NCBI GenBank assembly: GCA_052387855.1
Contig: JBQTIT010000007.1
Span: 56,922-120,921, forward strand
Direction: 5' to 3'
Length of the DNA stretch: 64,000 bases
DNA from: Paracoccaceae bacterium
GTDB lineage: Bacteria; Pseudomonadota; Alphaproteobacteria; Rhodobacterales; Rhodobacteraceae
The notes beneath the pieces are model-generated. The model saw only the letters and a program-made list of their open reading frames with translations, did no database searches and was not told where the DNA came from. Both the position numbers and the translations under genes were made by a program. Of this stretch, positions 3,319 to 18,040 are shown in pieces (the first letter of the stretch is position 1; each line of letters begins with the position of its first letter).

Positions 3319-3708
3319 ATGGCGGCAGTGACGGATTTGCAGGCGATGCTGCGCGGTATGCGCCCGGTGCTTGCCCCCGCGCCCTATGGCATCGTGTCGG
3401 TCCCGGTGCTGCCCGCCGGGCTGAAGCCCTTTGCCACGGTGGCCGAAGCCGAGGGCCTGACGCTTGTCGCGGAAAGTGCGGCCCTCGCGGCTGCGGGATT
3501 GGGGACCGAAAGCGACTGGGCGCTGATCAGCCTGACGCTGCATTCGGACCTTGCGGCGGTCGGGTTGACAGGGGCCTTTGCGACGGCGCTGGCCGATGAG
3601 GGCATCAGCGCCAATGTGATCGCGGGGTATTTCCATGACCACATTCTGGTGCAATGGGCCCGGCGTGAGGATGCCATGGCGGCCCTGACGCGGTTGTCGC
3701 ATGCTTGA
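3319..3708 (+). CDS. ACT-domain-like small protein (function unknown)
   Basis: 129-aa ORF. ATG 3319 is preceded by GAGAGG. The C-terminal part (ALISLTLHSDLAAVGLTGAFATALADEGISANVIAGYFHDHILV) resembles ACT ligand-binding folds. It overlaps the next gene by 8 nt. Confidence 0.55.
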   Translation: MAAVTDLQAMLRGMRPVLAPAPYGIVSVPVLPAGLKPFATVAEAEGLTLVAESAALAAAGLGTESDWALISLTLHSDLAAVGLTGAFATALADEGISANVIAGYFHDHILVQWARREDAMAALTRLSHA

Positions 3709-4306
3709 GGCGGCGCTACAGGGCTATCTGGTCTCGATCAGCCTGATCCTGGCCATCGGCGCGCAGAACGCCTTTGTGCTGCGACAGGGCATCCGGCGCG
3801 AGCATGTGCTGGCCGTGGTCGCGGTTTGCGCCATCTCTGACGCCATCCTGATCGGGGCGGGGGTGACCGGCTTTGGTGCGGCCTCGGCCCGGTTTCCCTG
3901 GCTGGGCGAGGCGATGCGTTGGGGCGGGGTCGCCTTTCTGCTGGTCTACGGCGCCTTGCGCTTTCGTGCCGCCCTGCGCGGCGGCGAGGCGCTGAGCCCC
4001 GCCGGCGGGCCAAGCGTCAGCCTTGCCTCGGCCCTTGGCACCTGCCTGGTGCTGACCTGGGCCAATCCGCATGTCTATCTGGACACCGTGGCGCTGATCG
4101 GGTCGATCTCGGCGCAATATGCGCCGCATCAGACCGCCTTTGGCATCGCGGCCGCCCTTGGCTCGCTGTCGTTCTTTTCGGGCCTGGGCTTTGGCGCCCG
4201 GTTCCTGGCGCCGCTCTTTGCCCGGCCCGCGGCCTGGGTGGTGCTTGAGGTGGCCATCGGCCTGACGATGTGGGCCATCGCGGCCGGTCTGGCGCTTGGG
4301 GCCTGA
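3701..4306 (+). CDS. argO: LysE/ArgO-family basic amino-acid exporter
   Basis: N-terminal GAQNAFVLRQGIRRE motif parallels E. coli ArgO GPQNAFVMNQGIRRQ. 201 aa, about 6 TM helices. Confidence 0.8.
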   Translation: MLEAALQGYLVSISLILAIGAQNAFVLRQGIRREHVLAVVAVCAISDAILIGAGVTGFGAASARFPWLGEAMRWGGVAFLLVYGALRFRAALRGGEALSPAGGPSVSLASALGTCLVLTWANPHVYLDTVALIGSISAQYAPHQTAFGIAAALGSLSFFSGLGFGARFLAPLFARPAAWVVLEVAIGLTMWAIAAGLALGA

Positions 4307-4417
4307 GCGCCCGGCACCGCGCCGTTGCGGCGGCGAAAGGGCCGGCGCGCGGCGGGATCAGCGGTTCTTAACAGCCTGTTCCTAGGGTCGCCCCTCAAGC
4401 GCATCCTGGAGGCCCCC

Positions 4418-6184
4418 ATGTCCGATCAGTCGACGATCCTGTCGCTGCCCCACATTCTGCCGTCACAGGCGCAAAAGCACGTCACCCACAACGAGGCGCT
4501 GCGGCTCCTTGACGTGATGGTGCAACTGTCCGTGACGCAGCGCACGCTCGGCGCGCCTCCGGCCAGCCCGGCGCTGGGGGACCGCCATATCGTCGGGGTT
4601 GCGCCGACCGGGGACTGGGCGGCGCATCAGGACGAGATCGCGCTGTGGAACGGTTCGGCCTGGGAATTCTTTGCCCCCCTTCAGGGCTGGCGCGCCTATG
4701 TCGCGGGCGAAGCGGCGGTCCTGGTCTATGACGGCAGCGGCTGGACCATGCCGGGCGGCATGGCCGAGTTCGACCGTCTGGGCGTGGCCATGCCGGCCGA
4801 TGCCGTCAACAAGCTCGCGGTCGCGGCGCCGGCGGCGCTGTTCACCAACCCCGCCGGCTCGCACCAGATGGCGATCAGCAAGGCGGCGGCGGGCGACACC
4901 GGATCGGTGCTGTTCCAGCAGAACTTTGTCAGCCATGCCGAGATCGGGCTGGTCGGCGACAATGACCTTGCGGTCAAGGTCAGCCCGGACGGGTCCAGCT
5001 TTCAAGGCGCGCTGCGGGCGGACCGCACCAGCGGCCGCGTCACCTTTGACCAGCCGCTGCGGCTGGCGCCGGCCGCCGGCGATGCCGTGGGGGTTGGCGA
5101 CGGCTTTCTGTGGTACAACGCCACCACCGGCAAATTCCGGGCGCGGCAGGCTGGGGCCGATGTCGATCTGATCGGCGCGGGCGCCGGGTCGGGCGATGTC
5201 GTGGGCCCGGCTGCCGCCAGCGACCATGCGCTGGCAAGGTTCGATCTGGCGACGGGCAAGCTGTTGCAGAATTCGGCGGTCACGCTTTCGGATGCGGGCG
5301 ATCTGGCCCTGCCCACGGGCGACTGGCCGGCCGGGGCCTGGACGCTGGCGCGCGCGGCGGGCGCGAACGGCGCGCTCAGCCTGTCCCAGCGCGGGACCGG
5401 GGCGTTGCAGCTTGTCGCCACGGACGCCGCCGAGATCGGGTTTTCCACCAATGGCGCCACACGGGCCCGGCTGTCCGCGACCGGCGCCTTTCTGCCCGGC
5501 GCCAATCTGGGCACCCCGATCGGAGAGCTTGCGACCCGGTTTTCGGAGATCTTCGCCCAGAAGGTGAATCTCGGCTCCACCTCGGCCGACGGGGTCGCTC
5601 TGTCCACCGGGGCCGGTGCGCCCGAAGGTGTGGTGACGGGCAGCGTCGGCTCGGTCTATCTTCGCGGCGACGGCGCGGGCGGGACCAGCCTTTACGTCAA
5701 GGAAAGCGGCGCGGGCAACACCGGCTGGACCGCCTTTCAGGCCGATCGCTGGACCTATCTCAAGTTGGCGGCCGACAGCGTCGTCAGCACCGTCGCCCAT
5801 GCGGATGTGGCCGGGATGTCCTTTACCGCGCTGGCCGACACGGTCTACGAGATCGAGATCTTTGGCGCCATGCAGTCGGCGGCAACGACGACCGGCATCG
5901 GCGTCGCCCTCAAGATCCCCAGCGGCACGGTTGACGGCATGACCATCGTGCCGAACACCACCACCAGCATCCAGGCCGCCATGCAGCGGGCCGACGATGC
6001 CATCGCCGCCCCGACCACGGCGGTCGCCACGGCGGCCGTGAACTGGCCGATCTTCGGCAAGTATCTTGTCGCGGTCGGCGCCACCGGCGGGGCGGTCCAG
6101 CTTCGCCAGCGGTCCGAGGTCGCGGGCAGCAGCACCACCCTGATGGCGGGCCTGCGGATGAAGGTCCGCCAGATCCCCGCCTGA
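4418..6184 (+). CDS. Phage/GTA tail-fibre-like protein (DUF2793-like N-terminus), orphan
   Basis: ATG 4418 lies 5 nt after GGAGG (4408-4412). N-terminus LSLPHILPSQAQKHVTHNEALRLLDVMVQLSV. Fibre-type motifs VVGPAAASDHALARFDLATGKLLQNS and SLYVKESGAGNTGW. A separate C-terminal domain of about 150 aa. Confidence 0.75.
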   Translation: MSDQSTILSLPHILPSQAQKHVTHNEALRLLDVMVQLSVTQRTLGAPPASPALGDRHIVGVAPTGDWAAHQDEIALWNGSAWEFFAPLQGWRAYVAGEAAVLVYDGSGWTMPGGMAEFDRLGVAMPADAVNKLAVAAPAALFTNPAGSHQMAISKAAAGDTGSVLFQQNFVSHAEIGLVGDNDLAVKVSPDGSSFQGALRADRTSGRVTFDQPLRLAPAAGDAVGVGDGFLWYNATTGKFRARQAGADVDLIGAGAGSGDVVGPAAASDHALARFDLATGKLLQNSAVTLSDAGDLALPTGDWPAGAWTLARAAGANGALSLSQRGTGALQLVATDAAEIGFSTNGATRARLSATGAFLPGANLGTPIGELATRFSEIFAQKVNLGSTSADGVALSTGAGAPEGVVTGSVGSVYLRGDGAGGTSLYVKESGAGNTGWTAFQADRWTYLKLAADSVVSTVAHADVAGMSFTALADTVYEIEIFGAMQSAATTTGIGVALKIPSGTVDGMTIVPNTTTSIQAAMQRADDAIAAPTTAVATAAVNWPIFGKYLVAVGATGGAVQLRQRSEVAGSSTTLMAGLRMKVRQIPA

Positions 6185-6280
6185 TCCGCGCCTTCGGTCC
6201 GCCCCGGTTCTCCCGATCCCGTTTGACAGGCTGCTGGCGGCTTTCTTTGCAGGGCCGGCGGGTTTTGGCGGCGGGGTATC

Positions 6281-7594
6281 ATGAAGATCGCGATGATCGG
6301 GACGGGCTATGTCGGGCTTGTCTCAGGGGTGTGTTTTTCCGACTTTGGCCATGACGTGGTCTGCGTCGACAAGAACCCCGACAAGATCGCGGCCCTTCAG
6401 CGCGGCGAGGTTCCGATCTTCGAGCCGGGGCTTGACCAGCTTCTGGCCAGGAACATCGCCGCCGGGCGGCTGGGCTTCACGCTCGATCTGGCCGCGGCGG
6501 TGGCGGGGGCGGATGCCGTCTTCATCGCGGTGGGCACGCCGGCGCGGCGCGGCGATGGCCATGCCGACCTGAGCTTTGTCATGCAGGCGGCGGCCGAGAT
6601 CGGCCGGGCGCTGACCGGACCTGCGGTGATCGTGACCAAGTCCACGGTTCCGGTCGGCACCAACCGCAAGCTGGCCGCGGCGATCCGCGCCGCCAATCCG
6701 GATGCCGACTTCGACGTCGCCTCGAACCCCGAGTTCCTGCGCGAGGGCGCGGCCATCGACGACTTCATGCGCCCGGACCGCGTGGTGGTCGGGGTCGAGA
6801 GCAAGCGGGCGGAAAAGGTGCTGGCCGACATCTACCGGCCGCTGTTTCTGCGCGAGTTTCCGATCGTCTTCACCGGCCTGGAAAGCGCCGAGATGATCAA
6901 ATACGCCGCCAACGCCTTTCTGGCCGCCAAGATCACCTTCATCAACGAGATCGCCGCGCTCAGCGAGCGGACCGGCGCCGACATCAAGGAAGTGGCCCGG
7001 GGCATCGGCCTTGACGGGCGGATCGGCAACAGGTTCCTGCACGCGGGTCCCGGCTATGGCGGAAGCTGCTTTCCCAAGGATACCAGGGCCTTGGCGCGGA
7101 TCGGGCAAGAGCACGGCGTGCCGATGCAGATCACCGAGACGGTGATCAAGGTCAACGAAGAGATCAAGCGGCGGATGATCGACAAGATCGTCGATCTGTG
7201 CGGCGGGGTGGTCAGCGGCAAGACGATCGGCGTGCTTGGGGTGACGTTCAAGCCCGACACCGACGACATGCGCGAGGCGCCCAGCCTGACCATCGTCCCC
7301 GCGCTGGTGGGCGCCGGGGCGCGGCTGCGCGTGGCCGACCCGCAGGGCCGGCGCGAGGGCGAGGCGCTGTTGCCGGGGGTGAAGTGGGTGGACAGCGCCT
7401 ATCAGGCGGCGCAGGGGGCCGACCTGCTGGTGATCCTGACCGAGTGGAACGAATATCGCGGGCTGGACCTGCAACGGCTGGCGCGCCGGATGACCCGCCC
7501 CGCCATGGCCGACCTGCGCAACCTCTACGACCCGGCCGAGGTCCTGGCCGCCGGATTCGTGGCCTATGTCGGCGTCGGGCGCCAGGGGACCTGA
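6281..7594 (+). CDS. ugd: UDP-glucose 6-dehydrogenase
   Basis: MKIAMIGTGYVGLVSGVCFSDFGHDVVCVDK Rossmann N-terminus and the catalytic GGSCFPKD motif. 437 aa. Confidence 0.95.
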   Translation: MKIAMIGTGYVGLVSGVCFSDFGHDVVCVDKNPDKIAALQRGEVPIFEPGLDQLLARNIAAGRLGFTLDLAAAVAGADAVFIAVGTPARRGDGHADLSFVMQAAAEIGRALTGPAVIVTKSTVPVGTNRKLAAAIRAANPDADFDVASNPEFLREGAAIDDFMRPDRVVVGVESKRAEKVLADIYRPLFLREFPIVFTGLESAEMIKYAANAFLAAKITFINEIAALSERTGADIKEVARGIGLDGRIGNRFLHAGPGYGGSCFPKDTRALARIGQEHGVPMQITETVIKVNEEIKRRMIDKIVDLCGGVVSGKTIGVLGVTFKPDTDDMREAPSLTIVPALVGAGARLRVADPQGRREGEALLPGVKWVDSAYQAAQGADLLVILTEWNEYRGLDLQRLARRMTRPAMADLRNLYDPAEVLAAGFVAYVGVGRQGT

Positions 7595-7687
7595 GCCTTC
7601 CGGAATCAGTGACTCAAGGCGCCCGGCAGGCTATGTGATCCCTGCGCGCCCGGGGTTCGGCGGCGGGTCTGGGGTCGGACTTTACGG

Positions 7688-10600
7688 ATGCAGTCGGCAC
7701 GCATGATCCTTTGTCTTGGTCCGCACCGGACCGGCACCTCTGCCGTGGCGGCGGCGCTTGCGGCCCTTGGAGCCGAGACCGGTATCGCCTGGGCCGATGC
7801 CAGCGCGGAAGGCGCCAGGGGTTCTTTCGAGCATCCGGGCCTGGTCGCGCTGAACGAGCGCCTTCTGGCGGCCTTGGGCGGGGCGTGGGATTCGGCGGTC
7901 TTTCGGGGCGGCCCGGCCATCGCAGCGGCGGGGAGCGGGCTGGATCCGCTGCGCGCCGAGGCGCTGGACCTTTTGCGCCGCAGCTTCCGCCCCGGGCAGA
8001 CCGCGCTGCTGATGGACCCAAGGCTGTGCCTGCTGCTCGATTTCTGGCTGCCGGTGATCGCCGAGGCGGGGTTTTCGCGGATCGACATGGTGCATGTGCT
8101 GCGCGATCCCCTGGCGGCGGCGCTGTCGCACCGGCGGCGCAGCCGGCGCCGGCCGGAGGGCGGCGATTTCGGCGCCGAACTGCCCGAGGGCGCGGCGCTG
8201 TGGCTGTCCTGCATGGGCCAGATGTGGGACGGCTTTGATCGCGGGCGCCATCTGGTGGTGTCCTTTGATGCCCTGCTCGGCCAGCCCGGAGCCACACTGC
8301 GGCGGCTGGCCGGATTTGCCGGGCTGCCTGTCGATGAAGCACGCATCGCCGCCGCCTCGGCCGGAGTCCTCGATCCGGCCTTGACGGGGCCCCCGCCGGC
8401 GCCCCTGGACCGGGCGGCGGTCGAACAGGCCCTGCCGCAGGCGCCGGGCGCCTTTGCGGCGCTGATGCCGCTTGCGGCGAAGGGCGCGCTTTCCCGCGCC
8501 GATGTTGCTGCCGTCTGTGGTCTGGCCCTGGCCGCCGGCCCGGCGATCGAGCGCATCCAGAGCGCCGCGCTGGCCCGGCTGCCGGCCAGCCGGCGCGCCC
8601 CGGCCGCGGCGGCGGCGCGGCCCGCGCCGCAGCGCGCGGCGGGCCGGTTGGCGCGCGCCGCTTGGGCGGGCATCGGCGCCGGCTGGATTCGCGTCAACCA
8701 TCTGGTCCGGTGGGCCCATCAGGGGGTCTCGGCCCGCGCGCCCCGCTGCGCCGAGCGTCTGCGGCGCCTGCTGTGGCCCGCCCTCGCGGCCGCCAACCTG
8801 GCCATCCTGGGAACAAGACATGTTCCCGCCCCGCGCACCACGATCGCCCCCAAGCCGGGGCAGACCATCCATCCGTTCGACTATCAGGCGCCGATGCCGG
8901 GCGGGCCCTATCGCCCGCTCGTCTCGGTCATCGTGCCGAACTACAACCACGCCCCGTTCCTGCGTCAGCGGCTGGACAGCATCTATGGCCAGAGCTGGCC
9001 CCGTTTCGAGGTCATCCTGTTGGATGACGGCTCCGGCGACGACAGCCGTGCCATCTTGCAGGACTACGCCGCGCGCCATGCCGACCGCACGCGGGTGATC
9101 CTGAACGACAAGAATTCGGGCAGCGCCTTTCGCCAATGGGAAAAGGGGATGGCGGCCGCGCGGGGCGATCTGATCTGGATCGCCGAGAGCGACGACTGGT
9201 GCTCGGCCAATTTTCTGGAAACGCTGGTGCCGTTCTTTGCCAACCCGGCCGTGCAACTGGCCTATGCGCCGTCCGTTTTCATGAACGGTGCCGGCGATCG
9301 GCAGATCTGGTCCATGGCCGAATACCTTTCTGATCTGGGGCCCGAGCGTTGGGACAAGGCCTTTGTCATCCCCGCGCCCAGGATCGTGCGCGAGGCTTTT
9401 GCCGAACGGAACATCATCCCCAACGTCTCGTCGGCGCTCATGCGCCGGATCGAGCGGCCCGAGGCGCTGGAGGCGGATGTCTGGCGCGGCATGCGCACCT
9501 GCGGCGACTGGGTGTTCTATCTGAACCTGATGCGCGGGGGCCTTCTGGCCTATTCGCCCGACGCGCAGAATTTCTACCGGATGCACGGGGCCAACACCTC
9601 GGCTCTCTCGCACACGACCGACAGCTATTACATCGAACACGAGACGGTCGCCCGCTGCGTGCAGCGTCACTACTCGGTCGACCCTTTGGTGTTTCAGCGC
9701 CAGCGTCAGGCCTTGATCCGGCACTGGACCCGCAAGCGGCCCCGCTTTGTGTCGGCCGAGTTCGATGCCTGCTACAGCCTGCCCAGGATCATGGCCGAGG
9801 CCAGGCTGCGCAAGCCGCGCCTGATGATGGCCGGGTTCGCCTTTTGCTCGGGCGGCGGCGAGACCTTTCCCATCACCCTGGCCAATCTGATGAAGTCGGC
9901 CGGCTACGATGTGACCTATCTCAACTGCCGCCAGGCGCCGGAGGTTCCCGGCATTCGCGGCCTGCTGGCCCGTGACATTCCGGTGGTGACGAATTTCGAG
10001 GACCTGAACGGCATCCTGCGCGATTTCGAGATCGAGGTGATCCACTCGCATCACGCCTGGACCGACAACACCATCCTTGATCTTATGCCCGAGAGCTCGC
10101 CGGTCAAGACGGTGATCACCCTGCACGGCATGTACGAAACCCTGACGGACGACCAGTTGCGCCAGACGCTGCCCAGGCTGGACCGACGCACCGGCGCGAT
10201 GGTCCATGTCGCGGAAAAGAACATTTCCGCCTGGACCAGGCTCGGCAGGCCGATTCCCCGGCAGATGAGGCAGATCGACAACGCGCTGGCCGATGGGCCG
10301 GTCACTCCGGTGGCGCGCGCGGCGCTGGGGATCGGGCCGGGGGCATTTGTGCTTGTCGTGGTTTCGCGCGCCATCGCGCCCAAGGGCTGGCAAGAAGCGA
10401 TCGAGGCCGTCACCCTGGCACGGCGGACGCTAAAGCGGGATCTGCACCTGGTGCTGGTCGGCGACGGGCCGGAATGCGAGCGGCTGCGCGGCAAGACGCC
10501 GCCTTTCGTGCATCTTGAGGGCTTTCGCAGCAACCCGCGCGACTATTTCGCCATGGCCGACGCCGGCCTGCTGCCGACGCGCTTTCCCTGCGAAAGCTTT

Positions 10601-10915
10601 CCGCTCGCCGTCATCGACTGCCTGATGACCGGCCGGCCCATGATCGCCACCCATATCGGCGAGATCCGGCGCATGCTGACGGGTGAAAACGGACCGGCGG
10701 GTGAGCTGTTCGATCTGGTGGACGGGCGGATTCCGGTCGATGTCCTTGCCGGCATCATCGTCAGGCTTGCCGCTGACCCGCAGGCACTGGGCCGCCTGAC
10801 GGCCGAGGTCGCCTCGGCCGCCCGTCAGTTCGACCCGGTCCGCATGCGCGACGGATATGATCACGTCTATCATTTTGCCACGGGCCGCGTGGCTGGCCTT
10901 CTGGCAGCGGAATGA
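7688..10915 (+). CDS. Tri-domain fusion of a sulfotransferase-like domain (about aa 6-215), a GT2 glycosyltransferase (about aa 409-640) and a GT4/GT1-type glycosyltransferase (about aa 710-1075)
   Basis: One uninterrupted 1075-codon frame. N-terminal domain has LGPHRTGTS (5'-PSB-like) and HVLRDPLAAALSH (3'-PB-like). GT2 domain has VSVIVPNYNHAPFL...ILLDDGSGDDS...AESDD. GT4 domain has EGFRSNPRDYFAMADAGLLPTRFPCESFPLAVIDCLMTGRP (E-x7-E region). Confidence 0.85.
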   Translation: MQSARMILCLGPHRTGTSAVAAALAALGAETGIAWADASAEGARGSFEHPGLVALNERLLAALGGAWDSAVFRGGPAIAAAGSGLDPLRAEALDLLRRSFRPGQTALLMDPRLCLLLDFWLPVIAEAGFSRIDMVHVLRDPLAAALSHRRRSRRRPEGGDFGAELPEGAALWLSCMGQMWDGFDRGRHLVVSFDALLGQPGATLRRLAGFAGLPVDEARIAAASAGVLDPALTGPPPAPLDRAAVEQALPQAPGAFAALMPLAAKGALSRADVAAVCGLALAAGPAIERIQSAALARLPASRRAPAAAAARPAPQRAAGRLARAAWAGIGAGWIRVNHLVRWAHQGVSARAPRCAERLRRLLWPALAAANLAILGTRHVPAPRTTIAPKPGQTIHPFDYQAPMPGGPYRPLVSVIVPNYNHAPFLRQRLDSIYGQSWPRFEVILLDDGSGDDSRAILQDYAARHADRTRVILNDKNSGSAFRQWEKGMAAARGDLIWIAESDDWCSANFLETLVPFFANPAVQLAYAPSVFMNGAGDRQIWSMAEYLSDLGPERWDKAFVIPAPRIVREAFAERNIIPNVSSALMRRIERPEALEADVWRGMRTCGDWVFYLNLMRGGLLAYSPDAQNFYRMHGANTSALSHTTDSYYIEHETVARCVQRHYSVDPLVFQRQRQALIRHWTRKRPRFVSAEFDACYSLPRIMAEARLRKPRLMMAGFAFCSGGGETFPITLANLMKSAGYDVTYLNCRQAPEVPGIRGLLARDIPVVTNFEDLNGILRDFEIEVIHSHHAWTDNTILDLMPESSPVKTVITLHGMYETLTDDQLRQTLPRLDRRTGAMVHVAEKNISAWTRLGRPIPRQMRQIDNALADGPVTPVARAALGIGPGAFVLVVVSRAIAPKGWQEAIEAVTLARRTLKRDLHLVLVGDGPECERLRGKTPPFVHLEGFRSNPRDYFAMADAGLLPTRFPCESFPLAVIDCLMTGRPMIATHIGEIRRMLTGENGPAGELFDLVDGRIPVDVLAGIIVRLAADPQALGRLTAEVASAARQFDPVRMRDGYDHVYHFATGRVAGLLAAE

Positions 10916-10966: not shown

Positions 10967-13171
10967 GTGAAACCGGCGCTGATCCTTCATGTCGGAATGG
11001 ACAAGACCGGCACGACGGCGATCCAGTCCGCACTGGACCGGGCCTGCCGGTCCTTGGCGTCCGAACATGGGGTCCTGGTGCCGCGCACCGGGTCGTGGAG
11101 CGACCATTCCCATCATCGCTTTGCCTTTGCCGCCTTCGGCATCAACGGATATTCCTTTGCCGACCTAGCGGGGCTGCTTGCAAGCCTGGAGGACGAGGTT
11201 ACCGGCGCTGGATGTGGCCGGGTTCTTCTGTCGTCAGAATGCCTGTACAACCTGCCCGGCAAGCCGGGCATGGAGGCGTTCATGGCCGGCCTGCGCCGCA
11301 TATTTGGCGCGATCCGCGTGATCGTCTATCTTCGCCGGCAGGACACTTGGGTTGAATCGCGCTACCGTCATTCGGTGGTCAGCGGGCGCGAGATCCCCCT
11401 CGGGCAGCTTTGCCAGCCAAGGTACGCCGACTATCTGCCCCCTCTTGACCGCTGGGCAGAGGTGGTGGGCCTGGCGAACATGGTGGTGCGGCCCTACGAG
11501 ACCGCCCAGTTCCCGATGGGCGACATCGCGGCGGATTTCGCGCAGGCGGCCGGGCTGCCTGCCGGCGCGCTGCCCAGCCTGCGCGGCATCCGGGCCAACG
11601 CGGCCCTGTCGTTTGAAGTGGTCCAGCTTCGCGCCGCCTTCAATCATCTTCGCCTGCCGCAGGAAACCACGGGCGATCTGAACGAGGTGCTGGCGCATGC
11701 CGTTGCCGGCGGGCCGGCCGAGCGGTTCTTCGTCTCGCCCCGGCAGGCCGCCCAGCTTGTCGAACGCTATTCGGAATCCAACCGGCAGATCGCCCTGCGC
11801 TATATGGGTCGGATGGACGGGCGCGCCTTTGTCGATCCGCCGCCCGCCGCCGGCGCCCATGCCGTCCCCGAGATCGGCAGGGCCCGGATGATCGAGATCC
11901 TCGGCACGGTCCGACAGCGCAAGCCAGAGCTTCTGCGCCGCGCCGCGAGGGCCGGGGACGAATTGCGCCTTGCGGATCTGCGGTTCCGCGAGGCGGCGGC
12001 GCAGGTCTGGACCCTTGTGAGCGCCCTGCGGGACATGGGAATCGGCGGCGAGGTCGCGGCCGCCGCGCGGTCGGCGCCCCTGCCGGGGGCACGGCCAGCG
12101 GCGCGGGAAATATTCGTTCATTTCGGGGTCTACAAGACCGGATCAAGCGCGATTCAAGAGACCCTTTTCAACCACGCCGCCGGTCTTTCGGACGGCGCCT
12201 ATCTGGGCGCAGGGGTCGCGAACCACTCGCTGCTGGTGCGGACGGCGGTGCTAGTTGCCAAGCGGGCGCAGGAAAGGTTCGCGCCCGGCGACAGCCTGGA
12301 AAAGGTCCAGCAGCGCAAGGAACATGCGGCCGAAAGGTTGCAGCATGCGCTGGCCGCCGCCGCGCCGGCGGGCAGGGTCATCCTGTCGGCCGAGGCGATC
12401 TGCGGCTTCACCGCCAGAGAGCTTGAAACGCTCAAGGACTTCCTGACCCCCCATGCCGAACAAATCCGGTTTTTCGGCTACATGCGCGATCCGGTCACGC
12501 TGACGGCCTCGGTCTTTCAAGAGCAGCTCAAGAGCCGAAGGCCGGTGGGCTTCACCTTTGGCCAGGGGGGCGAGCCGGGGCCGCCGCTGCTTTACAGGGT
12601 GGTGGACCGGCTTGACGCGCTGTTCGGCGCGGCGGCGGTGACCGTTTTTCCCTTTGATCCCGCCACTTTCCCGGGCGGCGACGTGGTGCGCCATTTTCTG
12701 GCTGCGACCGGGATCCGGGGCGAGGGGCTTGAGCCCGTCCGAAGCAACGAAAGCCTGAACCTGCTGGCGGTCAAGGCGCTGTATAGTTACCGACACCTGC
12801 GCTCTGCCGCAGAGTCCCCCGATCTGGGCAAGAGCCGCGCGGCCTTCATTTCGGACCTGCGCGGGCTCAGGGGGCCCTCGTTCGGCTTTCATCCCGACAT
12901 CAACGCCCGCATCAGGGCCAATTGCGGCGACTGGGATGACTGGGCGGCGCGCCGTCTTGGCCGCCCGCTTGCCTACCTGTCCACCGATGCCCAGGGCGGT
13001 ATCCGCACCGAGGCGGACCTGCTGACCTTTTCGGACCAGGACCTTGCCGAACTTGCCCGCTACGGCGAACGGCACGGGATCAATGCGATAACCGCCGCCT
13101 CTGGCGCCGAGGATGTCGCCGACCTTGTCCAGCGGGTCAGGCAGCGCTTTGCCAGGGGGATTGCGGATTAG
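10967..13171 (+). CDS. Protein made of two tandem sulfotransferase-fold modules (function unknown)
   Basis: GTG start at 10967. Module 1 has LHVGMDKTGTTAIQ plus YLRRQDTWVESRY. Module 2 (from about nt 12107) has VHFGVYKTGSSAIQ plus YMRDPVTLTAS. It lies in the capsule locus. Confidence 0.7.
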   Translation: MKPALILHVGMDKTGTTAIQSALDRACRSLASEHGVLVPRTGSWSDHSHHRFAFAAFGINGYSFADLAGLLASLEDEVTGAGCGRVLLSSECLYNLPGKPGMEAFMAGLRRIFGAIRVIVYLRRQDTWVESRYRHSVVSGREIPLGQLCQPRYADYLPPLDRWAEVVGLANMVVRPYETAQFPMGDIAADFAQAAGLPAGALPSLRGIRANAALSFEVVQLRAAFNHLRLPQETTGDLNEVLAHAVAGGPAERFFVSPRQAAQLVERYSESNRQIALRYMGRMDGRAFVDPPPAAGAHAVPEIGRARMIEILGTVRQRKPELLRRAARAGDELRLADLRFREAAAQVWTLVSALRDMGIGGEVAAAARSAPLPGARPAAREIFVHFGVYKTGSSAIQETLFNHAAGLSDGAYLGAGVANHSLLVRTAVLVAKRAQERFAPGDSLEKVQQRKEHAAERLQHALAAAAPAGRVILSAEAICGFTARELETLKDFLTPHAEQIRFFGYMRDPVTLTASVFQEQLKSRRPVGFTFGQGGEPGPPLLYRVVDRLDALFGAAAVTVFPFDPATFPGGDVVRHFLAATGIRGEGLEPVRSNESLNLLAVKALYSYRHLRSAAESPDLGKSRAAFISDLRGLRGPSFGFHPDINARIRANCGDWDDWAARRLGRPLAYLSTDAQGGIRTEADLLTFSDQDLAELARYGERHGINAITAASGAEDVADLVQRVRQRFARGIAD

Positions 13172-13249: not shown

Positions 13250-14077
13250 TTAGCCTTCGAGCGCGTCGCGCACAACCCGGTGCAGCATCACCATGCCGAT
13301 GGTAAAGGTGGACAGCGCCACCATCAGCACGAACAGCGACGAGACATCCCCGCGCCCGACCTCGGGGTAAAAGGCGGCGCGCATCAACTCGATCGGATGC
13401 GCGACGGGGTTCCACCACAGATAGGACTTGTAGGGCTCGGGAACGATGTCGATCGGGATCAGCACCCCCGAGGCCAGCATCAGCGGCCGGGTAAAGACCG
13501 ACCACAGGTTTTCGTAGCTGGGAACAAGCAGGAACAGGACCGCGTTCAGGCAGCCCACGCCAAAGCCCAGGCAGCCGGCCAGGGCCAGCGCCTCGATCAC
13601 CAGTAGCGCGTCGATGCTGGGGTTGAGATCGTAAAGGCCGATGATGCTGATCGCCAGAAAGGCAAAGACCACCATCTGGATGAAGAGATGCAGGATCGCC
13701 CGGGCAATGATCGTGTCCAGCGCGCGGACGGTCGGAAAGCTCAGCAGCGGCCGCGAAAACTTTGGCGCCGACGCCGCCTTTGACGACAGCGCGGCAAAGA
13801 CGCCAAAGGGCACGATCCCTGTCATGTAGAACAAGGGAAAGCTGTCACCGACCGGCGGCACGCGCGAGATGACGCTGAACACAAGGCTCATCAGGATGAT
13901 CGTCGCGATGGGGTCGATGAAGGCCCAGAGAAATCCCAGCGAGGTTCGGCTTTCGCTGGTTTCCAGCTCGCGCAGGATCAGCGCGCCAAGCACCCGCACC
14001 GTCTTGAAGTGCCGGCTGCGCGGCACCCCCGGCGCGCGGCGGTCCGGTTCGGACAAGGCGCTTTCGGTCCTGGGCAT
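13250..14077 (-). CDS. kpsM: Capsule polysaccharide ABC-2 exporter permease
   Basis: ILRELETSESRTSLGFLWAFIDPIATIILMSLVF parallels E. coli KpsM LREIRTRFGKFRLGYLWAILEP. The start was chosen at ATG 14077, which follows AAGGAAAGGA. The longer ORF reaching 14173 is less likely. Confidence 0.85.
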   Translation of the reverse strand: MPRTESALSEPDRRAPGVPRSRHFKTVRVLGALILRELETSESRTSLGFLWAFIDPIATIILMSLVFSVISRVPPVGDSFPLFYMTGIVPFGVFAALSSKAASAPKFSRPLLSFPTVRALDTIIARAILHLFIQMVVFAFLAISIIGLYDLNPSIDALLVIEALALAGCLGFGVGCLNAVLFLLVPSYENLWSVFTRPLMLASGVLIPIDIVPEPYKSYLWWNPVAHPIELMRAAFYPEVGRGDVSSLFVLMVALSTFTIGMVMLHRVVRDALEG

Positions 14078-14189
14078 GCGGTCCTTTCCTTGGCCGCGGC
14101 ACATGGCAAGGCCCTGCCAGCCCACGGCTTGGGGCTTGTACCAGCCCTGCCAATTCCATAACAAGGGCATCACCCAGGATCAACCGGCC

Positions 14190-15479
14190 ATGGCCCGCCC
14201 CTGGTGTCGAACCCGGAAGGCTCGCTTGACACAGCAAGGCGCAGTGACACCACCGCCCGGCCCCGGCCCCGGCCAAAAGGCCGCCTTGGCCGTGCCCGGC
14301 CCCGCGCGCGGCGCCGGCCCGGCGCGCAAGGCCCCGCGCGAGGTGCCGGCGGCCGAAGTGCGCCCGGCGATCGCGCAGGCCGGTCTGCGCCGGCGCCATT
14401 ATGGCGTGCTGATGTCCTTTATCGCGCTCGTCGTCCTGCCGGTCGCGCTCAGCGCCTGGTATCTGTGGACGCGCGCCGTGGATCAGTACGAAAGCCGCAT
14501 CGGCTTTGCCGTGCGGGCCGAGGGCCAGGTCGGCACCCCTGATCTGCTGAACGGCCTGCTGGGCCCGGCGTCCAGTTCCACCGCCGAGGACATGCACATC
14601 CTCAGCGCCTTTATCCTCAGCCAGGAGCTTGTCAGCCGCATCGACGCGCGTCTGGACCTGCGCCAGCGCTATTCGCTCTTTCCGGCCGATCCGGTCTATT
14701 CCCTCGCGCCCGAAGGCACGATCGAGGAGCTGGTGGATTACTGGGAGCGGATGGTCGTGGTCGACTACTCTTCGACCACAGGTCTGATGGAGCTGACAAT
14801 CTACGCCTTTACCCCGGCGGATGCCCAGGCCATCGCCGCCTTGGTGCTGGAGGAAAGCAGCGCCGTCATCAACCAGCTTTCCGCCATCGCGCGCGAGGAC
14901 AGCACCCGTTTCGCCCGCGAGGCGCTGGACACCGCGCGCGCGCGGGCCGGCGAGGCGCGGGCAGCCGTGGCGCGCTTTCGCGCCACCAACAAGGTTGCCG
15001 ACCCCTCGGCCGACATCGCCTCGCATATGGGCGTGGTCTCGTCGCTGCAACAGCAGCTTGCCGGGGCGCTGGTCGAGCTGGACATGCTGCGCCTGGGCAC
15101 CAAGGCGGACGATCCGCGCATCGGCCCGCTGGAGCGGCGGATCGAGGCGATCGAGGGCCGCATCGACCAGGAACGCGCCGACCTTGGCATCGGCATCGAC
15201 GGCGCGGGCTTTGCCGAGGTGCTGGGCGAATACGAGCGACTCAAGGTCGATCAGACTTTTGCCGAGCAGGCCTATCTTGCCGCGCTTTCGGCGCATGATG
15301 CGGCGATGGCCGTGGCGGGGCGCAACAGCCGCTATCTGGCGACCTTCGTGCCGCCCACCCTGGCCGAGGCCTCCACCGCGCCGGTGCGGCCGCTGGTGCT
15401 GCTGGTGATCGGCATCATCGCTCTCTTGGGCTGGTCCTCGCTGGTGCTGATCTTTTACGCGCTGCGCGACCGCCGATAG
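14190..15479 (+). CDS. kpsE: Capsule export inner-membrane PCP-3 protein (KpsE-like)
   Basis: N-terminal TM segment (YGVLMSFIALVVLPVALSAWYLW), a long coiled periplasmic region and a C-terminal TM segment (LVLLVIGIIALLGWSSLVLIFY). The start is uncertain because the N-terminal Pro/Gly/Ala-rich extension may not be translated. Confidence 0.75.
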   Translation: MARPWCRTRKARLTQQGAVTPPPGPGPGQKAALAVPGPARGAGPARKAPREVPAAEVRPAIAQAGLRRRHYGVLMSFIALVVLPVALSAWYLWTRAVDQYESRIGFAVRAEGQVGTPDLLNGLLGPASSSTAEDMHILSAFILSQELVSRIDARLDLRQRYSLFPADPVYSLAPEGTIEELVDYWERMVVVDYSSTTGLMELTIYAFTPADAQAIAALVLEESSAVINQLSAIAREDSTRFAREALDTARARAGEARAAVARFRATNKVADPSADIASHMGVVSSLQQQLAGALVELDMLRLGTKADDPRIGPLERRIEAIEGRIDQERADLGIGIDGAGFAEVLGEYERLKVDQTFAEQAYLAALSAHDAAMAVAGRNSRYLATFVPPTLAEASTAPVRPLVLLVIGIIALLGWSSLVLIFYALRDRR

Positions 15480-15494: not shown

Positions 15495-16187
15495 ATGATC
15501 GAGCTTGAAAACCTGACCAAGGCCTACCGCTACAACGGTCAGCCGAAATACATCGTGCGGGGCGTCAACGCGGTCTTTTCGGCGGGAAAGGTCACGGCGC
15601 TTCTGGGGCGCAACGGCGCGGGCAAGTCGACCTTGCTGCAACTCATTGCCGGCACGATCAACCCGGATTCGGGCCGCGTAAGGACTCAAGGCATGATCTC
15701 GTGGCCGATCGGGCTGGCGGGCGGGCTGCACCCCGAATTGACGGGGGTGCAGAATGTCCGCTTCATCGCCCGGGTCTACGGTGTCGACACCGATGAGATG
15801 GTCGATTTCGTCGGCGACTTTGCCGAGCTGGGGCCAAGCTATCGCCAACCGGTGCGCACCTATTCCTCGGGCCAGCGGGCGCGGCTGAACTTCGGGATGT
15901 CGATGGCGATCCGGTTCGATTGTTACCTGATCGACGAGATCACATCGGTCGGCGACGCCGGATTCCGCGCCAAGAGCGCCCAGCTTTTCGCCGACCGGAT
16001 GTCAAGCGCCGGGGCGATCTATGTCAGCCATTCGCTTTCGGCGATCCGGCAATCCTGCGATGCGGCCATGGTCCTTGAGGCCGGCCAGTTGCGGTATTTC
16101 GACAATGTCGACGAAGCGATCGAGACGCATGAGCGCAACATTCTGGGACAGAATTACAGGATGGTGAAGCTGCTCGATCCGGATTGA
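15495..16187 (+). CDS. kpsT: Capsule export ABC transporter ATP-binding protein
   Basis: Walker A GRNGAGKST, signature YSSGQRARL and Walker B CYLIDE. 230 aa, directly downstream of kpsE. Confidence 0.9.
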   Translation: MIELENLTKAYRYNGQPKYIVRGVNAVFSAGKVTALLGRNGAGKSTLLQLIAGTINPDSGRVRTQGMISWPIGLAGGLHPELTGVQNVRFIARVYGVDTDEMVDFVGDFAELGPSYRQPVRTYSSGQRARLNFGMSMAIRFDCYLIDEITSVGDAGFRAKSAQLFADRMSSAGAIYVSHSLSAIRQSCDAAMVLEAGQLRYFDNVDEAIETHERNILGQNYRMVKLLDPD

Positions 16188-17848: not shown

Positions 17849-18040
17849 TCTGCCGCCGCGTGCTTAATTCCGGGCTAAGGCGCGCCCGTCGCCGCGGCCC
17901 GGCCCGTCCGCAACGCGCTGAATTTTGCGAACATTTTCCAGAAATCCGCGCGACAAGCCGCTTTCGCGCCCGAATTGCACCGCAGCGGCGGGCCGTTCTG
18001 CCGGCAGCCTTGTCCCCGGGTGTGACATCGGGGTGGGGAC

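What the first reader, a model, noticed from the sequence alone, without database searches (positions are those of the whole stretch)
4368..6184. Orphan phage/GTA tail-fibre-like gene heading a capsule locus, with no other phage genes in 64 kb
The 588-aa ORF has a strong RBS.
- Its N-terminus (LSLPHILPSQAQKHVTHNEALRLLDVMVQLSV) matches what I recall as the DUF2793 signature of phage and gene-transfer-agent fibre proteins.
- The middle carries fibre-type motifs (VVGPAAASDHALARFDLATGKLLQNS; SVYLRGDGAGGTSLYVKESGAGNTGW).
- The last 150 aa or so form a distinct domain that could bind a receptor.

No capsid, portal, terminase, tape-measure, lysis or integrase gene occurs anywhere in the window, so this is not a prophage remnant in the usual sense.

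The gene is co-directional with, and directly upstream of, ugd, the glycosyltransferase fusion and the kps export genes. In Rhodobacter capsulatus the RcGTA accessory structural genes are scattered away from the main cluster: the tail fibre is rcc00171 and the head spikes are rcc01079/rcc01080. The head-spike genes sit next to the capsule genes that make the GTA receptor. This locus could be an analogous linkage of an attachment fibre to its receptor polysaccharide. Alternatively it could be a domesticated capsule-binding or depolymerising fibre.
Basis: partly seen in the sequence, partly recalled or inferred. Interest (0 to 1): 0.7.

Follow-up and report, generated by a model that had tools for sequence, protein, structure and literature searches.

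The report
GTA tail-fibre gene beside capsule locus
This is an intact, stand-alone gene for the tail fibre of a gene transfer agent (a domesticated virus-like particle that moves DNA between bacteria); it sits next to capsule-sugar genes, which is expected for this bacterial group, but the fibre-next-to-sugar-genes arrangement recurs across many genera.

Summary
The ORF is real: ATG 4418 (not 4368) to stop 6184, 588 aa, GGAGG five nt upstream. It is a DUF2793 protein (PF10983, E 4.7e-30). Its N-terminus matches the solved tail fibre of roseophage R4C (8GTC chain S), which docks on the GTA-type baseplate protein "megatron". That family includes Rcc00171, the RcGTA tail fibre, a known orphan gene in most Rhodobacterales.

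No phage gene lies in the 64 kb. The position lysE–fibre–ugd recurs in 18 loci from other assemblies, of at least five named genera. The upstream region is conserved and holds one of only two TTAAC (CtrA half-site-like) pentamers in the window. dN/dS is 0.19.

The protein is modular:
- a conserved N-terminal anchor (aa 1–215);
- two widespread fibre motifs;
- a C-terminal TNF/C1q-like lectin-type head (aa 442–588), up to 66% identical to heads of genuine phage fibres.

The downstream locus (ugd, sulfotransferase–GT fusion, kpsM/E/T-like genes) is a capsule locus.

One added observation: outside this clade, 24 of 44 orphan DUF2793 genes directly abut polysaccharide genes. Untested: whether the genome has a GTA cluster, and what the fibre binds.

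The parts
4324..4417 (+). Conserved upstream (promoter) region of the fibre gene: GTTGCG (4324-4329), GC-rich block (~4342-4352), TTAAC (4368-4372, CtrA half-site-like), CCTAGGGTCGC (4381-4391), GGAGG RBS (4408-4412)
   Evidence: Alignment of 26 orthologous upstream regions from several genera keeps these blocks. TTAAC occurs only twice in 64 kb against 12 +/- 3.8 expected. Putative CtrA half-sites are reported in the rcc00171 promoter. Function is inferred, not shown.
4418..6184 (+). Fibre gene, 588 aa plus stop (DUF2793 protein, Rcc00171-type tail fibre)
   Evidence: dN/dS is 0.19 against the 86%-identical orthologue in L001. There is no hydrophobic segment or signal peptide and no Cys.
4418..5062 (+). 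Conserved N-terminal anchor, aa 1-215. It comprises a helix ('rod', aa ~15-35), a 'knob' (aa ~40-115, which is Pfam DUF2793 aa 24-109, nt 4487-4744) and a third conserved beta domain (aa ~150-255).
   Evidence: 47-54% identical in the related genome loci. Matches R4C fibre 8gtc_S aa 5-130. AF2 pLDDT is above 90 for aa 40-115 and 160-250; Foldseek gives 8gtc_S rmsd 2.2 A and the JBD30 baseplate chain 8rk3_E. In R4C the rod with its N-terminal extension binds the megatron fibre-binding domain.
5177..5317 (+). Widespread fibre motif 1 (aa 254-300, GDVVGPAAASDHALARFDLATGKLLQNS)
   Evidence: 60-80% identical over 40-50 aa in many otherwise unrelated proteins, some of which carry Pectate_lyase_3, Beta_helix or Peptidase_S74 domains.
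5594..5734 (+). Widespread fibre motif 2 (aa 393-439, GSVGSVYLRGDGAGGTSLYVKESGAGNTGW)
   Evidence: 63-76% identical. In many proteins it is the extreme C-terminus, for example P0150 and P0153. PHROG hits at aa 380-459.
5741..6181 (+). C-terminal head domain (aa 442-588), TNF/C1q-like jelly roll, presumed receptor-binding lectin-type head
   Evidence: 46-66% identical to the C-termini of short collagen/PTR/Mtd_N-type proteins. Two of these sit in phage contigs, one directly after the tape-measure and baseplate genes. At least 110 IMG/VR viral contigs carry the domain. AF2 pLDDT is above 90. Foldseek: TNF-like lectins PLTL and BC2L-C-Nt, E 2e-4 to 3e-3, TM up to 0.69; viral collagen-repeat fibres, E 1.8e-10.
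6281..7594 (+). ugd (UDP-glucose 6-dehydrogenase)
   Evidence: Pfam UDPG_MGDP_dh N, central and C domains; NCBIfam TuaD E 1e-147. Syntenic partner of the fibre gene in 17 other loci plus L001.
7688..10915 (+). 1075-aa sulfotransferase + GT2 + GT4/GT1 fusion
   Evidence: conserved in L001 and L169.
10967..13171 (+). 734-aa capsule-locus protein with no family match
   Evidence: No Pfam, NCBIfam or PHROG hit. 73% identical in L001. 29-31% matches beside or near kps genes in L039 and L054.
13250..14173 (-). kpsM-like ABC-2 permease
   Evidence: ABC2_membrane E 1.7e-16. NCBIfam KpsM E 4.4e-26, below the equivalog cut-off.
14190..15479 (+). kpsE-like (BexC/CtrB/KpsE family) protein; start approximate
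   Evidence: TIGR01010 E 2.9e-57, below its cut-off. Start candidates are listed.
15495..16187 (+). kpsT-like ABC ATPase
   Evidence: ABC_tran; best NCBIfam matches are TagH, Wzt and VexC.

Best explanation
The gene most likely encodes the tail fibre of an RcGTA-type gene transfer agent, the counterpart of Rhodobacter capsulatus Rcc00171. Like rcc00171, it is kept as a stand-alone chromosomal gene away from the head-tail cluster.

Proposed mechanism:
1. The conserved N-terminal rod and knob (aa 1-~130) trimerise and plug into the fibre-binding domain of the baseplate protein megatron (g15). This follows from homology to the solved R4C fibre.
2. A shaft built from widespread fibre motifs spaces out the head.
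3. The C-terminal TNF/C1q-like, lectin-type head (aa 442-588) binds a surface glycan of the recipient cell, probably the capsule. This step is inferred.
4. The head is an exchangeable module shared with tail fibres of genuine phages, so specificity is reset by domain swapping while the anchor stays fixed.
5. Expression is probably late and CtrA/GafA-dependent, from its own conserved promoter. This is inferred from one conserved TTAAC half-site-like element.
6. Placing the fibre gene next to capsule genes keeps ligand and candidate receptor genes together. That the adjacent locus makes the receptor is the weakest step.
For: Family and anchor:
- PF10983, E 4.7e-30. PHROG tail-fibre families match.
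- Sequence match to R4C fibre 8gtc_S, E 2e-10 over aa 7-131. The AF2 model superposes at rmsd 2.2 A.
- R4C has 9 fibre copies forming 3 trimers on megatron, and its fibre is 30.4% identical to the RcGTA fibre.
- In phages RDJL Phi 1 and RcKemmy the homologue lies immediately after the g12-g15 genes.

Orphan, resident, functional gene:
- No phage family in 64 kb.
- No g12-g15, tape-measure, tail-tube or lysis homologue in the window or in the 86 other loci held at that point, 84 of which carry a DUF2793 gene.
- No tRNA next to the gene and no att-like flanking repeats.
- lysE-fibre-ugd synteny in 17 loci from other genomes plus L001.
- dN/dS 0.17-0.21 in all three modules.
- No signal peptide.

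Literature:
- Rcc00171 is DUF2793, orphan, present in 18 of 21 Rhodobacterales genomes, directly downstream of EPS genes, and essential for transfer.
- DUF2793 co-evolves with GTA genes.
- The Rcc00171 fibre binds the capsule polysaccharide.
- Putative CtrA half-sites are reported in the rcc00171 promoter.

Promoter:
- Conserved upstream blocks, including TTAAC, which is one of 2 copies in 64 kb against 12 expected.

Head:
- Lectin-type jelly roll shared with phage fibres.

Linkage:
- 24 of 44 non-syntenic orphan DUF2793 genes directly abut polysaccharide genes.
- The share of neighbouring genes that are polysaccharide genes falls from 36% within 1 kb to 6% at 8-11 kb.
Against: - No GTA head-tail cluster, gafA or megatron gene could be looked for in this MAG; only 64 kb of a 129.5-kb contig is on hand.
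- No direct alignment with Rcc00171 was possible. The link runs through R4C and RDJL Phi 1 and the literature. A search seeded with a R. capsulatus phage fibre returned no protein named as R. capsulatus.
- DUF2793 fibres also occur in genuine phages, and Hynes et al. found phage and host copies interspersed in the tree. Family membership alone therefore does not prove GTA use.
- The CtrA element is a single pentamer with no mapped transcription start.
- The middle of the protein (aa 256-440) was modelled at low confidence.
- Glycan binding by the head rests on fold similarity at modest TM scores (0.5-0.69) and about 10% identity.
- No terminator or promoter call settles whether the fibre gene and ugd are co-transcribed.
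Confidence: 0.72

Rival explanations
1. It is the fibre of a GTA-like siphophage (RDJL/R4C/RcKemmy type): either a leftover of a decayed prophage or a moron-like spare fibre used by a prophage located elsewhere. It would then not be a GTA component.
For: - DUF2793 fibres are present in at least 334 phage records.
- The head domain is up to 66% identical to heads in real phage contigs.
- Hynes et al. infer phage-mediated transfer of rcc00171 homologues, and extra copies sit in prophages.
Against: - In phages the gene always follows g12-g15. Here, and in all 84 related loci held when the search was run, no such gene lies within 10 kb.
- Same chromosomal slot in 18 other loci, of at least five named genera, with a conserved promoter.
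- Purifying selection, dN/dS 0.19.
- No integrase, att repeats or flanking tRNA.
Confidence: 0.12
2. It is a host-domesticated, GTA-independent surface or secreted lectin/adhesin belonging functionally to the capsule locus, for example anchoring or organising the capsule or mediating cell-cell adhesion.
For: - Tight and recurrent adjacency to polysaccharide genes.
- Lectin-type head.
- Same strand as ugd and 96 nt upstream of it, with no predicted terminator between them.
Against: - No signal peptide, transmembrane segment or known secretion signal.
- The most conserved part is precisely the module that docks on megatron in a solved baseplate. That part would have no reason to be conserved in a free adhesin.
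- The family co-evolves with GTA structural genes.
Confidence: 0.08
3. It is a capsule-depolymerising tailspike, an enzyme rather than a binder.
For: - Motif 1 also occurs in proteins with Pectate_lyase_3, Beta_helix and Peptidase_S74 domains.
- GTAs do carry a depolymerase, TspA.
- Weak Foldseek hits to the P22 tailspike, E above 0.5.
Against: - No beta-helix, lyase or hydrolase family in Pfam or NCBIfam.
- Only about 225 aa lie between anchor and head, too short for a typical catalytic beta-helix.
- The head is a jelly-roll lectin fold.
- Purified Rcc00171 showed no polysaccharide breakdown.
- TspA is a different protein, rcc02623.
Confidence: 0.03

Closest known systems
[quoted passage not shown] 2016; Alim et al. 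2023)
   Same: - DUF2793 N-terminus.
- Orphan gene outside the head-tail cluster.
- Lies beside extracellular-polysaccharide genes.
- Small-residue-rich, beta-rich composition.
- Putative CtrA half-site upstream.
- Fast-evolving distal part.

   Different: - This protein is upstream of, and heads, a kps-type locus, whereas rcc00171 is downstream of three EPS genes.
- Its distal half (aa 216-588) is shared only with three very close relatives and ends in a phage-type TNF-like head.
Tail fibre vBDshSR4C_017 of roseophage R4C (PDB 8GTC chains S/T; mislabelled 'Ribonuclease III')
   Same: The rod and knob regions align (aa 7-131 to 5-130, E 2e-10; rmsd 2.2 A; 34% identity). The trimeric fibre docks on megatron.
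   Different: - The R4C fibre is 230 aa, with an 8-stranded lectin-like 'foot' directly after the knob.
- This protein has an extra conserved domain, a roughly 200-aa shaft and a different (TNF-like) head.
- The R4C gene lies inside a phage tail module.
DUF2793 genes of phages RDJL Phi 1 (gp85), RcKemmy (gp22), RcRhea and Paracoccus vB_PmaS-R3
   Same: N-terminal 200-300 aa are 35-51% identical.
   Different: In these phages the gene follows the g12-g15 ('GTA orf15-like' / TIM-barrel) genes directly. Here it is isolated among housekeeping genes.
RcGTA head-spike genes ghsA/ghsB (rcc01079/rcc01080) next to the capsule receptor genes
   Same: An attachment-protein gene lies immediately beside, and upstream of, capsule biosynthesis genes.
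   Different: It is a different protein family and a different position on the particle (head rather than tail). No homologue was looked for or seen here.
TNF-like trimeric lectins BC2L-C N-terminal domain (2WQ4, 6ZZW) and PLTL (9IB6-9IB9); C1q/collagen-type phage fibre heads
   Same: The predicted fold of aa 442-588 matches (E 2e-4 to 3e-3, TM up to 0.69). Viral collagen-repeat fibres match at E 1.8e-10.
   Different: About 10% sequence identity to the lectins. Sugar-binding residues and trimer interfaces were not examined.
TspA (rcc02623), detachable RcGTA tailspike (bioRxiv 2026)
   Same: Another GTA accessory protein encoded away from the cluster, GafA-controlled and polysaccharide-directed.
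   Different: TspA is a beta-helix enzyme with a beta-sandwich N-terminus. It has no DUF2793 domain and no relation to this protein.

Membership tests
Pfam PF10983 (DUF2793) | HMM score above the curated gathering threshold | tested here: met
   103.7 bits against a cut-off of 27, E 4.7e-30, profile positions 1-86 of 87.
GTA-type baseplate tail fibre (R4C gp017 / Rcc00171 type) | N-terminal rod and knob homologous to the module that binds the megatron fibre-binding domain | tested here: met
   phmmer against 8gtc_S, E 2e-10. Foldseek rmsd 2.2 A over 92 columns at 34% identity.
GTA-type baseplate tail fibre (R4C gp017 / Rcc00171 type) | Direct sequence similarity to Rcc00171 (ADE83936.1) | not tested
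   The sequence was not obtainable with these tools. It was not among the listed hits. Only an indirect link exists, via R4C (30.4% identity) and RDJL Phi 1 gp85.
RcGTA accessory ('multilocus genome') gene | Encoded as an orphan gene away from phage or GTA structural genes | tested here: met
   No phage family in 64 kb. No g12-g15, tape-measure or lysis homologue.
RcGTA accessory ('multilocus genome') gene | Genome carries an RcGTA-type head-tail cluster, including megatron (g15) | not testable with these tools
RcGTA accessory ('multilocus genome') gene | Co-regulated with GTA genes through CtrA/GafA | tested here: inconclusive
   A conserved TTAAC lies 46 nt before the ATG and is one of 2 copies in 64 kb. 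The published rcc00171 promoter sites are in a figure that is not readable here. No expression data.
RcGTA accessory ('multilocus genome') gene | Protein present in GTA particles and needed for transfer; binds the capsule | not testable with these tools
   Experimental. Shown for Rcc00171 only.
Prophage or prophage remnant | Neighbouring phage genes, integrase, att repeats or a tRNA target | tested here: not met
Phage tailspike depolymerase | Right-handed beta-helix catalytic domain | tested here: not met
   No such Pfam or NCBIfam family. The head is a jelly roll. The region aa 256-440 was modelled poorly, so a small non-canonical enzyme is not formally excluded.
ABC-transporter-dependent (kps, group 2-like) capsule locus | KpsM, KpsT and KpsE homologues together with glycosyltransferases | tested here: met
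   KpsM E 4.4e-26; KpsE family E 2.9e-57; ABC ATPase; GT fusion; ugd. All scores are below the NCBIfam equivalog cut-offs, so these are family-level assignments only.
ABC-transporter-dependent (kps, group 2-like) capsule locus | KpsD (outer-membrane export) and KpsC/KpsS (Kdo linker) | tested here: not met
   No Poly_export or Capsule_synth family among the proteins scanned in the window. They may lie elsewhere in the genome.
TNF/C1q-like trimeric lectin fold | Jelly-roll fold similarity; conserved sugar-binding site | tested here: inconclusive
   The fold similarity is significant but moderate (E 2e-4, TM 0.5-0.69). Binding residues were not examined.

The most novel reading that the evidence does not exclude
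The fibre gene and the neighbouring surface-polysaccharide genes may form a linked 'ligand plus receptor' unit. The GTA tail-fibre gene has been placed or kept next to capsule or O-antigen-type genes across Rhodobacterales and Hyphomicrobiales. The fibre's exchangeable head and the glycan it recognises would then be inherited and replaced together, restricting GTA-mediated DNA delivery to kin in a greenbeard-like way.

In this lineage, a phage-derived TNF-like head and a lineage-specific kps/sulfotransferase cassette both occupy the otherwise conserved lysE-ugd slot. This is the pattern such a model predicts.
Probability: 0.3. Interest if true: 0.65.

Novelty: new member of a known kind. Interest (0 to 1): 0.4.

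Why it matters
For annotation, this 'DUF2793 domain-containing protein' (elsewhere mislabelled 'ribonuclease III') can be named a GTA-type tail fibre, with a defined anchor, shaft and lectin-type head.

For biology, the gene itself is expected in this order. Three points go beyond what the papers read here describe:
- the fixed chromosomal slot, lysE-fibre-ugd;
- the conserved promoter with a rare TTAAC;
- the recurrent adjacency of orphan fibre genes to polysaccharide genes in many genera.

If the linkage is functional, it gives a direct handle on an open question: how GTA producers confine the benefit of a suicidal trait to relatives. One could swap heads and capsule cassettes and measure who receives DNA.

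Tried and rejected
- Direct comparison with Rcc00171 and Rcc01079/80. The sequences could not be obtained. R. capsulatus was not among the 80 genome loci returned. A third protein search, seeded with the RcKemmy fibre, returned no protein named as R. capsulatus.
- Published CtrA/GafA sites of the rcc00171 promoter. They are in an image-only supplementary figure. The R. capsulatus phage paper gave no fibre link.
- Sigma-70 promoter and terminator scans of 3600-8000. No promoter was called and the terminator count was not above chance, so operon structure with ugd stays open.
- A full CtrA box (TTAA-N7-TTAA, up to 1 mismatch). None lies at the fibre gene; the only match is at 17864-17878.
- NCBIfam gave no family for the fibre.
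- AF2 of aa 1-445 gave low confidence for aa 256-440, so the shaft fold is unresolved. Monomer prediction suits a trimeric fibre poorly.
- Repeat and tRNA searches for prophage borders found only chance-level repeats, and no tRNA lies near the gene.
- Depolymerase, adhesin and prophage-remnant readings were considered and ranked low; the reasons are under the rival explanations.

Caveats on the neighbourhood statistics:
- The 80 loci are those most similar to this N-terminus.
- Genes were called with a crude GC3 rule that failed on 18 loci.
- The loci are not phylogenetically independent.
- The background was taken from distance decay within the same loci, not from random genomic controls.
Full report
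**Observation**

The window holds one long ORF on the plus strand that ends at 6184. The mechanical ORF starts at a TTG at 4325. The biological start is the ATG at 4418:
- It is preceded by GGAGG (4408-4412) with a 5-nt spacer.
- The resulting N-terminus, MSDQSTILSLPHILPSQAQKHVTHNEAL, aligns residue for residue with the MPDxSTILSLP... N-termini of all homologues.

High third-position G+C (0.87) marks this frame as the coding one. The overlapping antisense ORFs are the usual artefacts of 70% G+C DNA.

**Family**

- Pfam DUF2793 matches at E 4.7e-30 (aa 24-109).
- PHROGs gives several unnamed families and two named 'tail fiber protein'.
- NCBIfam gives nothing.
- The only solved structure matched by sequence is chain S of 8GTC (E 2e-10, aa 7-131 to 5-130). 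The depositors' label 'Ribonuclease III' is the same mis-annotation that Hynes et al. 2016 describe for rcc00171 homologues.

The 8GTC paper identifies this chain as the tail fibre of roseophage R4C. Nine copies form three tripod-like trimers. The N-terminal rod binds the fibre-binding domain of the baseplate protein megatron, followed by a knob and a lectin-like foot. [quoted passage not shown]

An AlphaFold2 model of aa 1-445 is confident for the helix (15-35), the knob (40-115) and a further domain (about 150-255). It superposes on 8gtc_S at 2.2 A over 92 columns. Its next hits are a baseplate chain of Pseudomonas phage JBD30 and a Bdellovibrio fibre beta-helix.

tblastn against phage genomes finds the N-terminal 200-300 aa in:
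- Rhodobacter phages such as RcKemmy (46-51% identity);
- RcRhea and RcCronus;
- Paracoccus phage vB_PmaS-R3;
- RDJL Phi 1, the phage gene Hynes et al. cite as an Rcc00171 homologue.

In RDJL Phi 1 and RcKemmy the gene lies immediately after the g12-g15 homologues, annotated 'GTA orf15-like' and 'GTA TIM barrel-like domain protein'. The protein therefore belongs to the fibre family that docks on GTA-type baseplates.

**Orphan status**

About 60 candidate genes of the window were scanned. They are housekeeping genes: EamA, CitMHS, YebC, ACT, LysE, glnA, aldehyde and alcohol dehydrogenases, rodA/PBP2/mreBC, leuA, nadE, gltX, gcvTHP, glyA and others. None gave a capsid, portal, terminase, tape-measure, lysis or integrase family. 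The ORFs without a Pfam match that were also put through PHROGs gave nothing there either.

tblastn with the tube, tape-measure, g12-g15, holin and endolysin proteins of two GTA-like phages found nothing in the window. It also found nothing in any of the 86 other loci held at that time. The two tRNA genes are 50 kb away, and no att-like repeats flank the gene.

**Source and relatives**

The identical protein is on record as 'MAG: DUF2793 domain-containing protein [Paracoccaceae bacterium]' on a 129.5-kb contig. Full-length relatives are few: P0002-P0004, 86-91% identical. All other hits share only the first 36-45% of the protein.

A genome scan with the N-terminal profile found at least 588 loci, of which the best 80 were kept. 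Seventeen loci from other genomes, plus L001 (the 86%-identical relative), carry the fibre gene in the same slot: yebC ... lysE-[eamA]-fibre-ugd. They come from Cypionkella, Tabrizicola, Pseudorhodobacter, Fuscovulum, 'Rhodobacter' ferrooxidans and unnamed MAGs.

| Element | Identity across these loci |
|---|---|
| YebC | 84-89% |
| Ugd | 78-84% |
| LysE | 68-80% |
| Fibre N-terminus | 47-54% |
| Fibre distal part | falls into unrelated types |

The distal type found in the window is shared only with L001. This pattern fits a resident, vertically inherited gene whose distal half is repeatedly replaced. Against L001, dN/dS is 0.19 overall (0.17 N-terminal, 0.21 middle, 0.17 head), so all modules are under purifying selection.

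**Upstream region**

The 26 orthologous upstream regions keep five elements:
- GTGTTGCG;
- a GC-rich CAGCGCGCGC block;
- GT(T/G)AAC;
- CCTAGGGTCGC;
- the RBS.

In the window the third block is TTAAC at 4368-4372. This pentamer occurs only twice in 64 kb on both strands, against 12 +/- 3.8 in dinucleotide-preserving shuffles. TTAAC is the core of the CtrA half-site. Sherlock and Fogg 2022 report putative CtrA half-sites in the promoters of rcc00171, ghsA/B and the lysis genes, which they treat as late genes driven by CtrA-P with GafA. This is a lead, not a demonstration. There is no mapped transcription start, the published sites could not be read, and about half of the orthologues have TGAAG or TGAAC instead.

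**Architecture of the protein**

1. aa 1-215: the conserved anchor.
2. aa 254-300: a motif (VVGPAAASDHALARFD..GKLLQNS), 60-80% identical in many otherwise unrelated fibre and tailspike-like proteins.
3. aa 393-439: a second motif (GSVYLRGDG..LYVKESG.GNTGW). In many proteins it is the very C-terminus.
4. aa 442-588: an added head.

The head is 46-66% identical to the C-termini of short proteins (205-350 aa) whose N-termini are collagen-like, PTR or Mtd_N repeats. One of these sits in a podophage-like contig next to the portal gene. Another sits in a siphophage or prophage directly after the tape-measure gene and three baseplate genes. At least 110 IMG/VR viral contigs encode the head.

AlphaFold2 models the head as a jelly roll with pLDDT above 90. 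Foldseek finds the TNF-like trimeric lectins PLTL and BC2L-C-Nt in the PDB (E 2e-4 to 3e-3, TM up to 0.69). Among predicted viral structures it finds collagen-repeat tail fibres (E 1.8e-10; 124 hits at E <= 0.001).

The protein has no signal peptide, no hydrophobic segment and no Cys. It is rich in Ala, Gly, Thr and Ser, like Rcc00171 as described. No beta-helix or enzyme family is detected. I therefore read it as a binder, not a depolymerase.

**Neighbouring locus**

| Coordinates | Strand | Gene |
|---|---|---|
| 6281-7594 | + | ugd |
| 7688-10915 | + | 1075-aa sulfotransferase + GT2 + GT4/GT1 fusion |
| 10967-13171 | + | 734-aa protein with no family |
| 13250-14173 | - | kpsM-like permease |
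| ~14190-15479 | + | BexC/CtrB/KpsE-family protein |
| 15495-16187 | + | ABC ATPase |

This is an ABC-transporter-dependent capsule locus at family level. All NCBIfam scores are below the equivalog cut-offs. KpsD, KpsC and KpsS were not found in the window. The same set follows the fibre gene in L001 and in a Logan contig. In the other syntenic genomes different genes, often an RTX protein, follow ugd. In this lineage, therefore, both the fibre's distal half and the capsule cassette are lineage-specific occupants of a conserved slot.

Ninety-six nt separate the fibre stop codon from the ugd start, with no predicted terminator. A TTGACA hexamer lies in the gap. Co-transcription is undecided.

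**Is the linkage more general?**

Outside the syntenic clade I called genes in 44 loci from Rhodobacterales (including Sulfitobacter, Pseudooceanicola, Tateyamaria, Ruegeria, Aliiroseovarius, Puniceibacterium and Roseovarius) and Hyphomicrobiales (including Aminobacter, Aquibium, Rhizobium, Martelella, Shinella and Fulvimarina).

Of 144 nearest neighbours (up to two per side, within 4 kb), the commonest Pfam families were:

| Family | Members |
|---|---|
| Epimerase | 21 |
| RmlD_sub_bind | 20 |
| GDP_Man_Dehyd | 18 |
| Polysacc_synt_2 | 12 |
| Bac_transf | 5 |
| dTDP_sugar_isom | 4 |
| NTP_transferase | 3 |
| UDPG_MGDP_dh | 3 |
| PGM_PMM | 3 |
| GT2 | 3 |
| SLBB | 3 |

No phage family appeared among the top 25. 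The first four families overlap heavily on the same proteins.

Per locus:
- 30 of 44 have a polysaccharide gene within 5 kb; this count includes kpsT-like ABC ATPase matches, which may be generic.
- 24 of 44 have one as an immediate neighbour; kpsT-like matches are excluded here.
- With kpsT-like matches excluded, the fraction of genes that are polysaccharide genes falls from 36% within 1 kb to 6% at 8-11 kb.
- kpsM/kpsT-like pairs lie within 10 kb in 11 loci, in several arrangements.

Hynes et al. noted that rcc00171 lies downstream of three EPS genes and that ghsA/B abut the capsule genes. They found synteny only within genera. I found no paper in the held library that describes the wider pattern. 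Four caveats apply: similarity-biased sampling, a crude gene caller, phylogenetic non-independence and no random-locus control.

**Mechanism**

Shown by homology to a solved structure: the N-terminal rod and knob are the megatron-docking module.

Shown by sequence: the gene is orphan, resident, intact and under purifying selection, and its head is a module shared with phage fibres.

Taken from the literature on the R. capsulatus orthologue: the fibre sits at the tip of the baseplate and is essential for transfer. It binds the capsular polysaccharide and is treated as a late, CtrA-P/GafA-dependent gene.

Inferred:
- This protein is the fibre of this organism's GTA.
- Its TNF-like head binds a surface glycan.
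- The glycan is the product of the adjacent kps-type locus. This is the weakest step.

**Comparison and novelty**

The thing works like, and by the testable criteria is a member of, the Rcc00171/R4C fibre family. The criteria not testable here are the presence of a GTA cluster in the genome, GTA-linked expression and presence in particles. It is a new member of a known kind.

What distinguishes it is modest: a phage-derived TNF-like head on a long shaft, and its position at the head of a kps/sulfotransferase capsule locus. The wider neighbourhood pattern is the part worth following up.

**Verdict**

- Interest is 0.4, because an orphan DUF2793 gene is the rule in this order. The recurrent fibre-polysaccharide adjacency could make GTA kin-targeting experimentally approachable.

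Noticed in passing
window 16154-17848 (-) and 17864-17878: An RTX + NIDO-domain protein lies directly after the kpsT-like gene. The window's only near-full CtrA box (TTAATTCCGGGCTAA, 1 mismatch) lies 16 nt upstream of its start; the statistics are weak, since 37% of shuffles give at least one match. RTX-like genes also follow ugd in most syntenic loci. In R. capsulatus an RTX homologue (Rcc00280) represses GTA induction.
   Followed up: partly
window, whole; 4368-4372 and 30748-30752: The pentamer TTAAC is strongly under-represented: 2 copies on both strands against 12 +/- 3.8 in dinucleotide-preserving shuffles. One of the two copies is in the fibre promoter.
   Followed up: partly
window 10967-13171 (+): A 734-aa protein in the capsule locus has no Pfam, NCBIfam or PHROG match. 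It is 73% identical in L001 and has 29-31% tblastn matches near kps genes in L039 (Tateyamaria) and L054 (Fulvimarina). It may be an uncharacterised capsule-locus family.
   Followed up: partly
window 7688-10915 (+): A single 1075-aa polypeptide fuses a sulfotransferase-like N-terminus with GT2 and GT4/GT1 glycosyltransferase domains (1209 aa in L001). Together with ugd this suggests a sulfated, glucuronate-containing polymer.
   Followed up: no
L002 11613-12892; also L014, L017 and L050 (Cypionkella/Pseudorhodobacter): In the Cypionkella-type loci, two small ORFs without family matches (137 and 288 aa in L002) sit between the fibre gene and ugd. They could be fibre chaperones or assembly factors specific to that fibre type.
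   Followed up: no
L085 9569-10735: In a podophage-like contig, the protein carrying the same C-terminal head follows an Acb2/Tad1-hairpin-family (anti-CBASS/anti-Thoeris sponge-like) gene placed right after the portal gene.
   Followed up: no
window 43972-45420 (+): A MORN-repeat protein (9 repeats) matches phrog_7324 (unknown function) at E 7e-69. This is most likely repeat-driven similarity rather than a phage gene.
   Followed up: no
related loci L005-L084: Orphan DUF2793 proteins range from about 274 to 1045 aa with the same ~215-aa N-terminus. Within the syntenic clade there are at least three unrelated distal types (window/L001, Cypionkella type, Tabrizicola type) plus the singletons L005 and L048.
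   Followed up: partly
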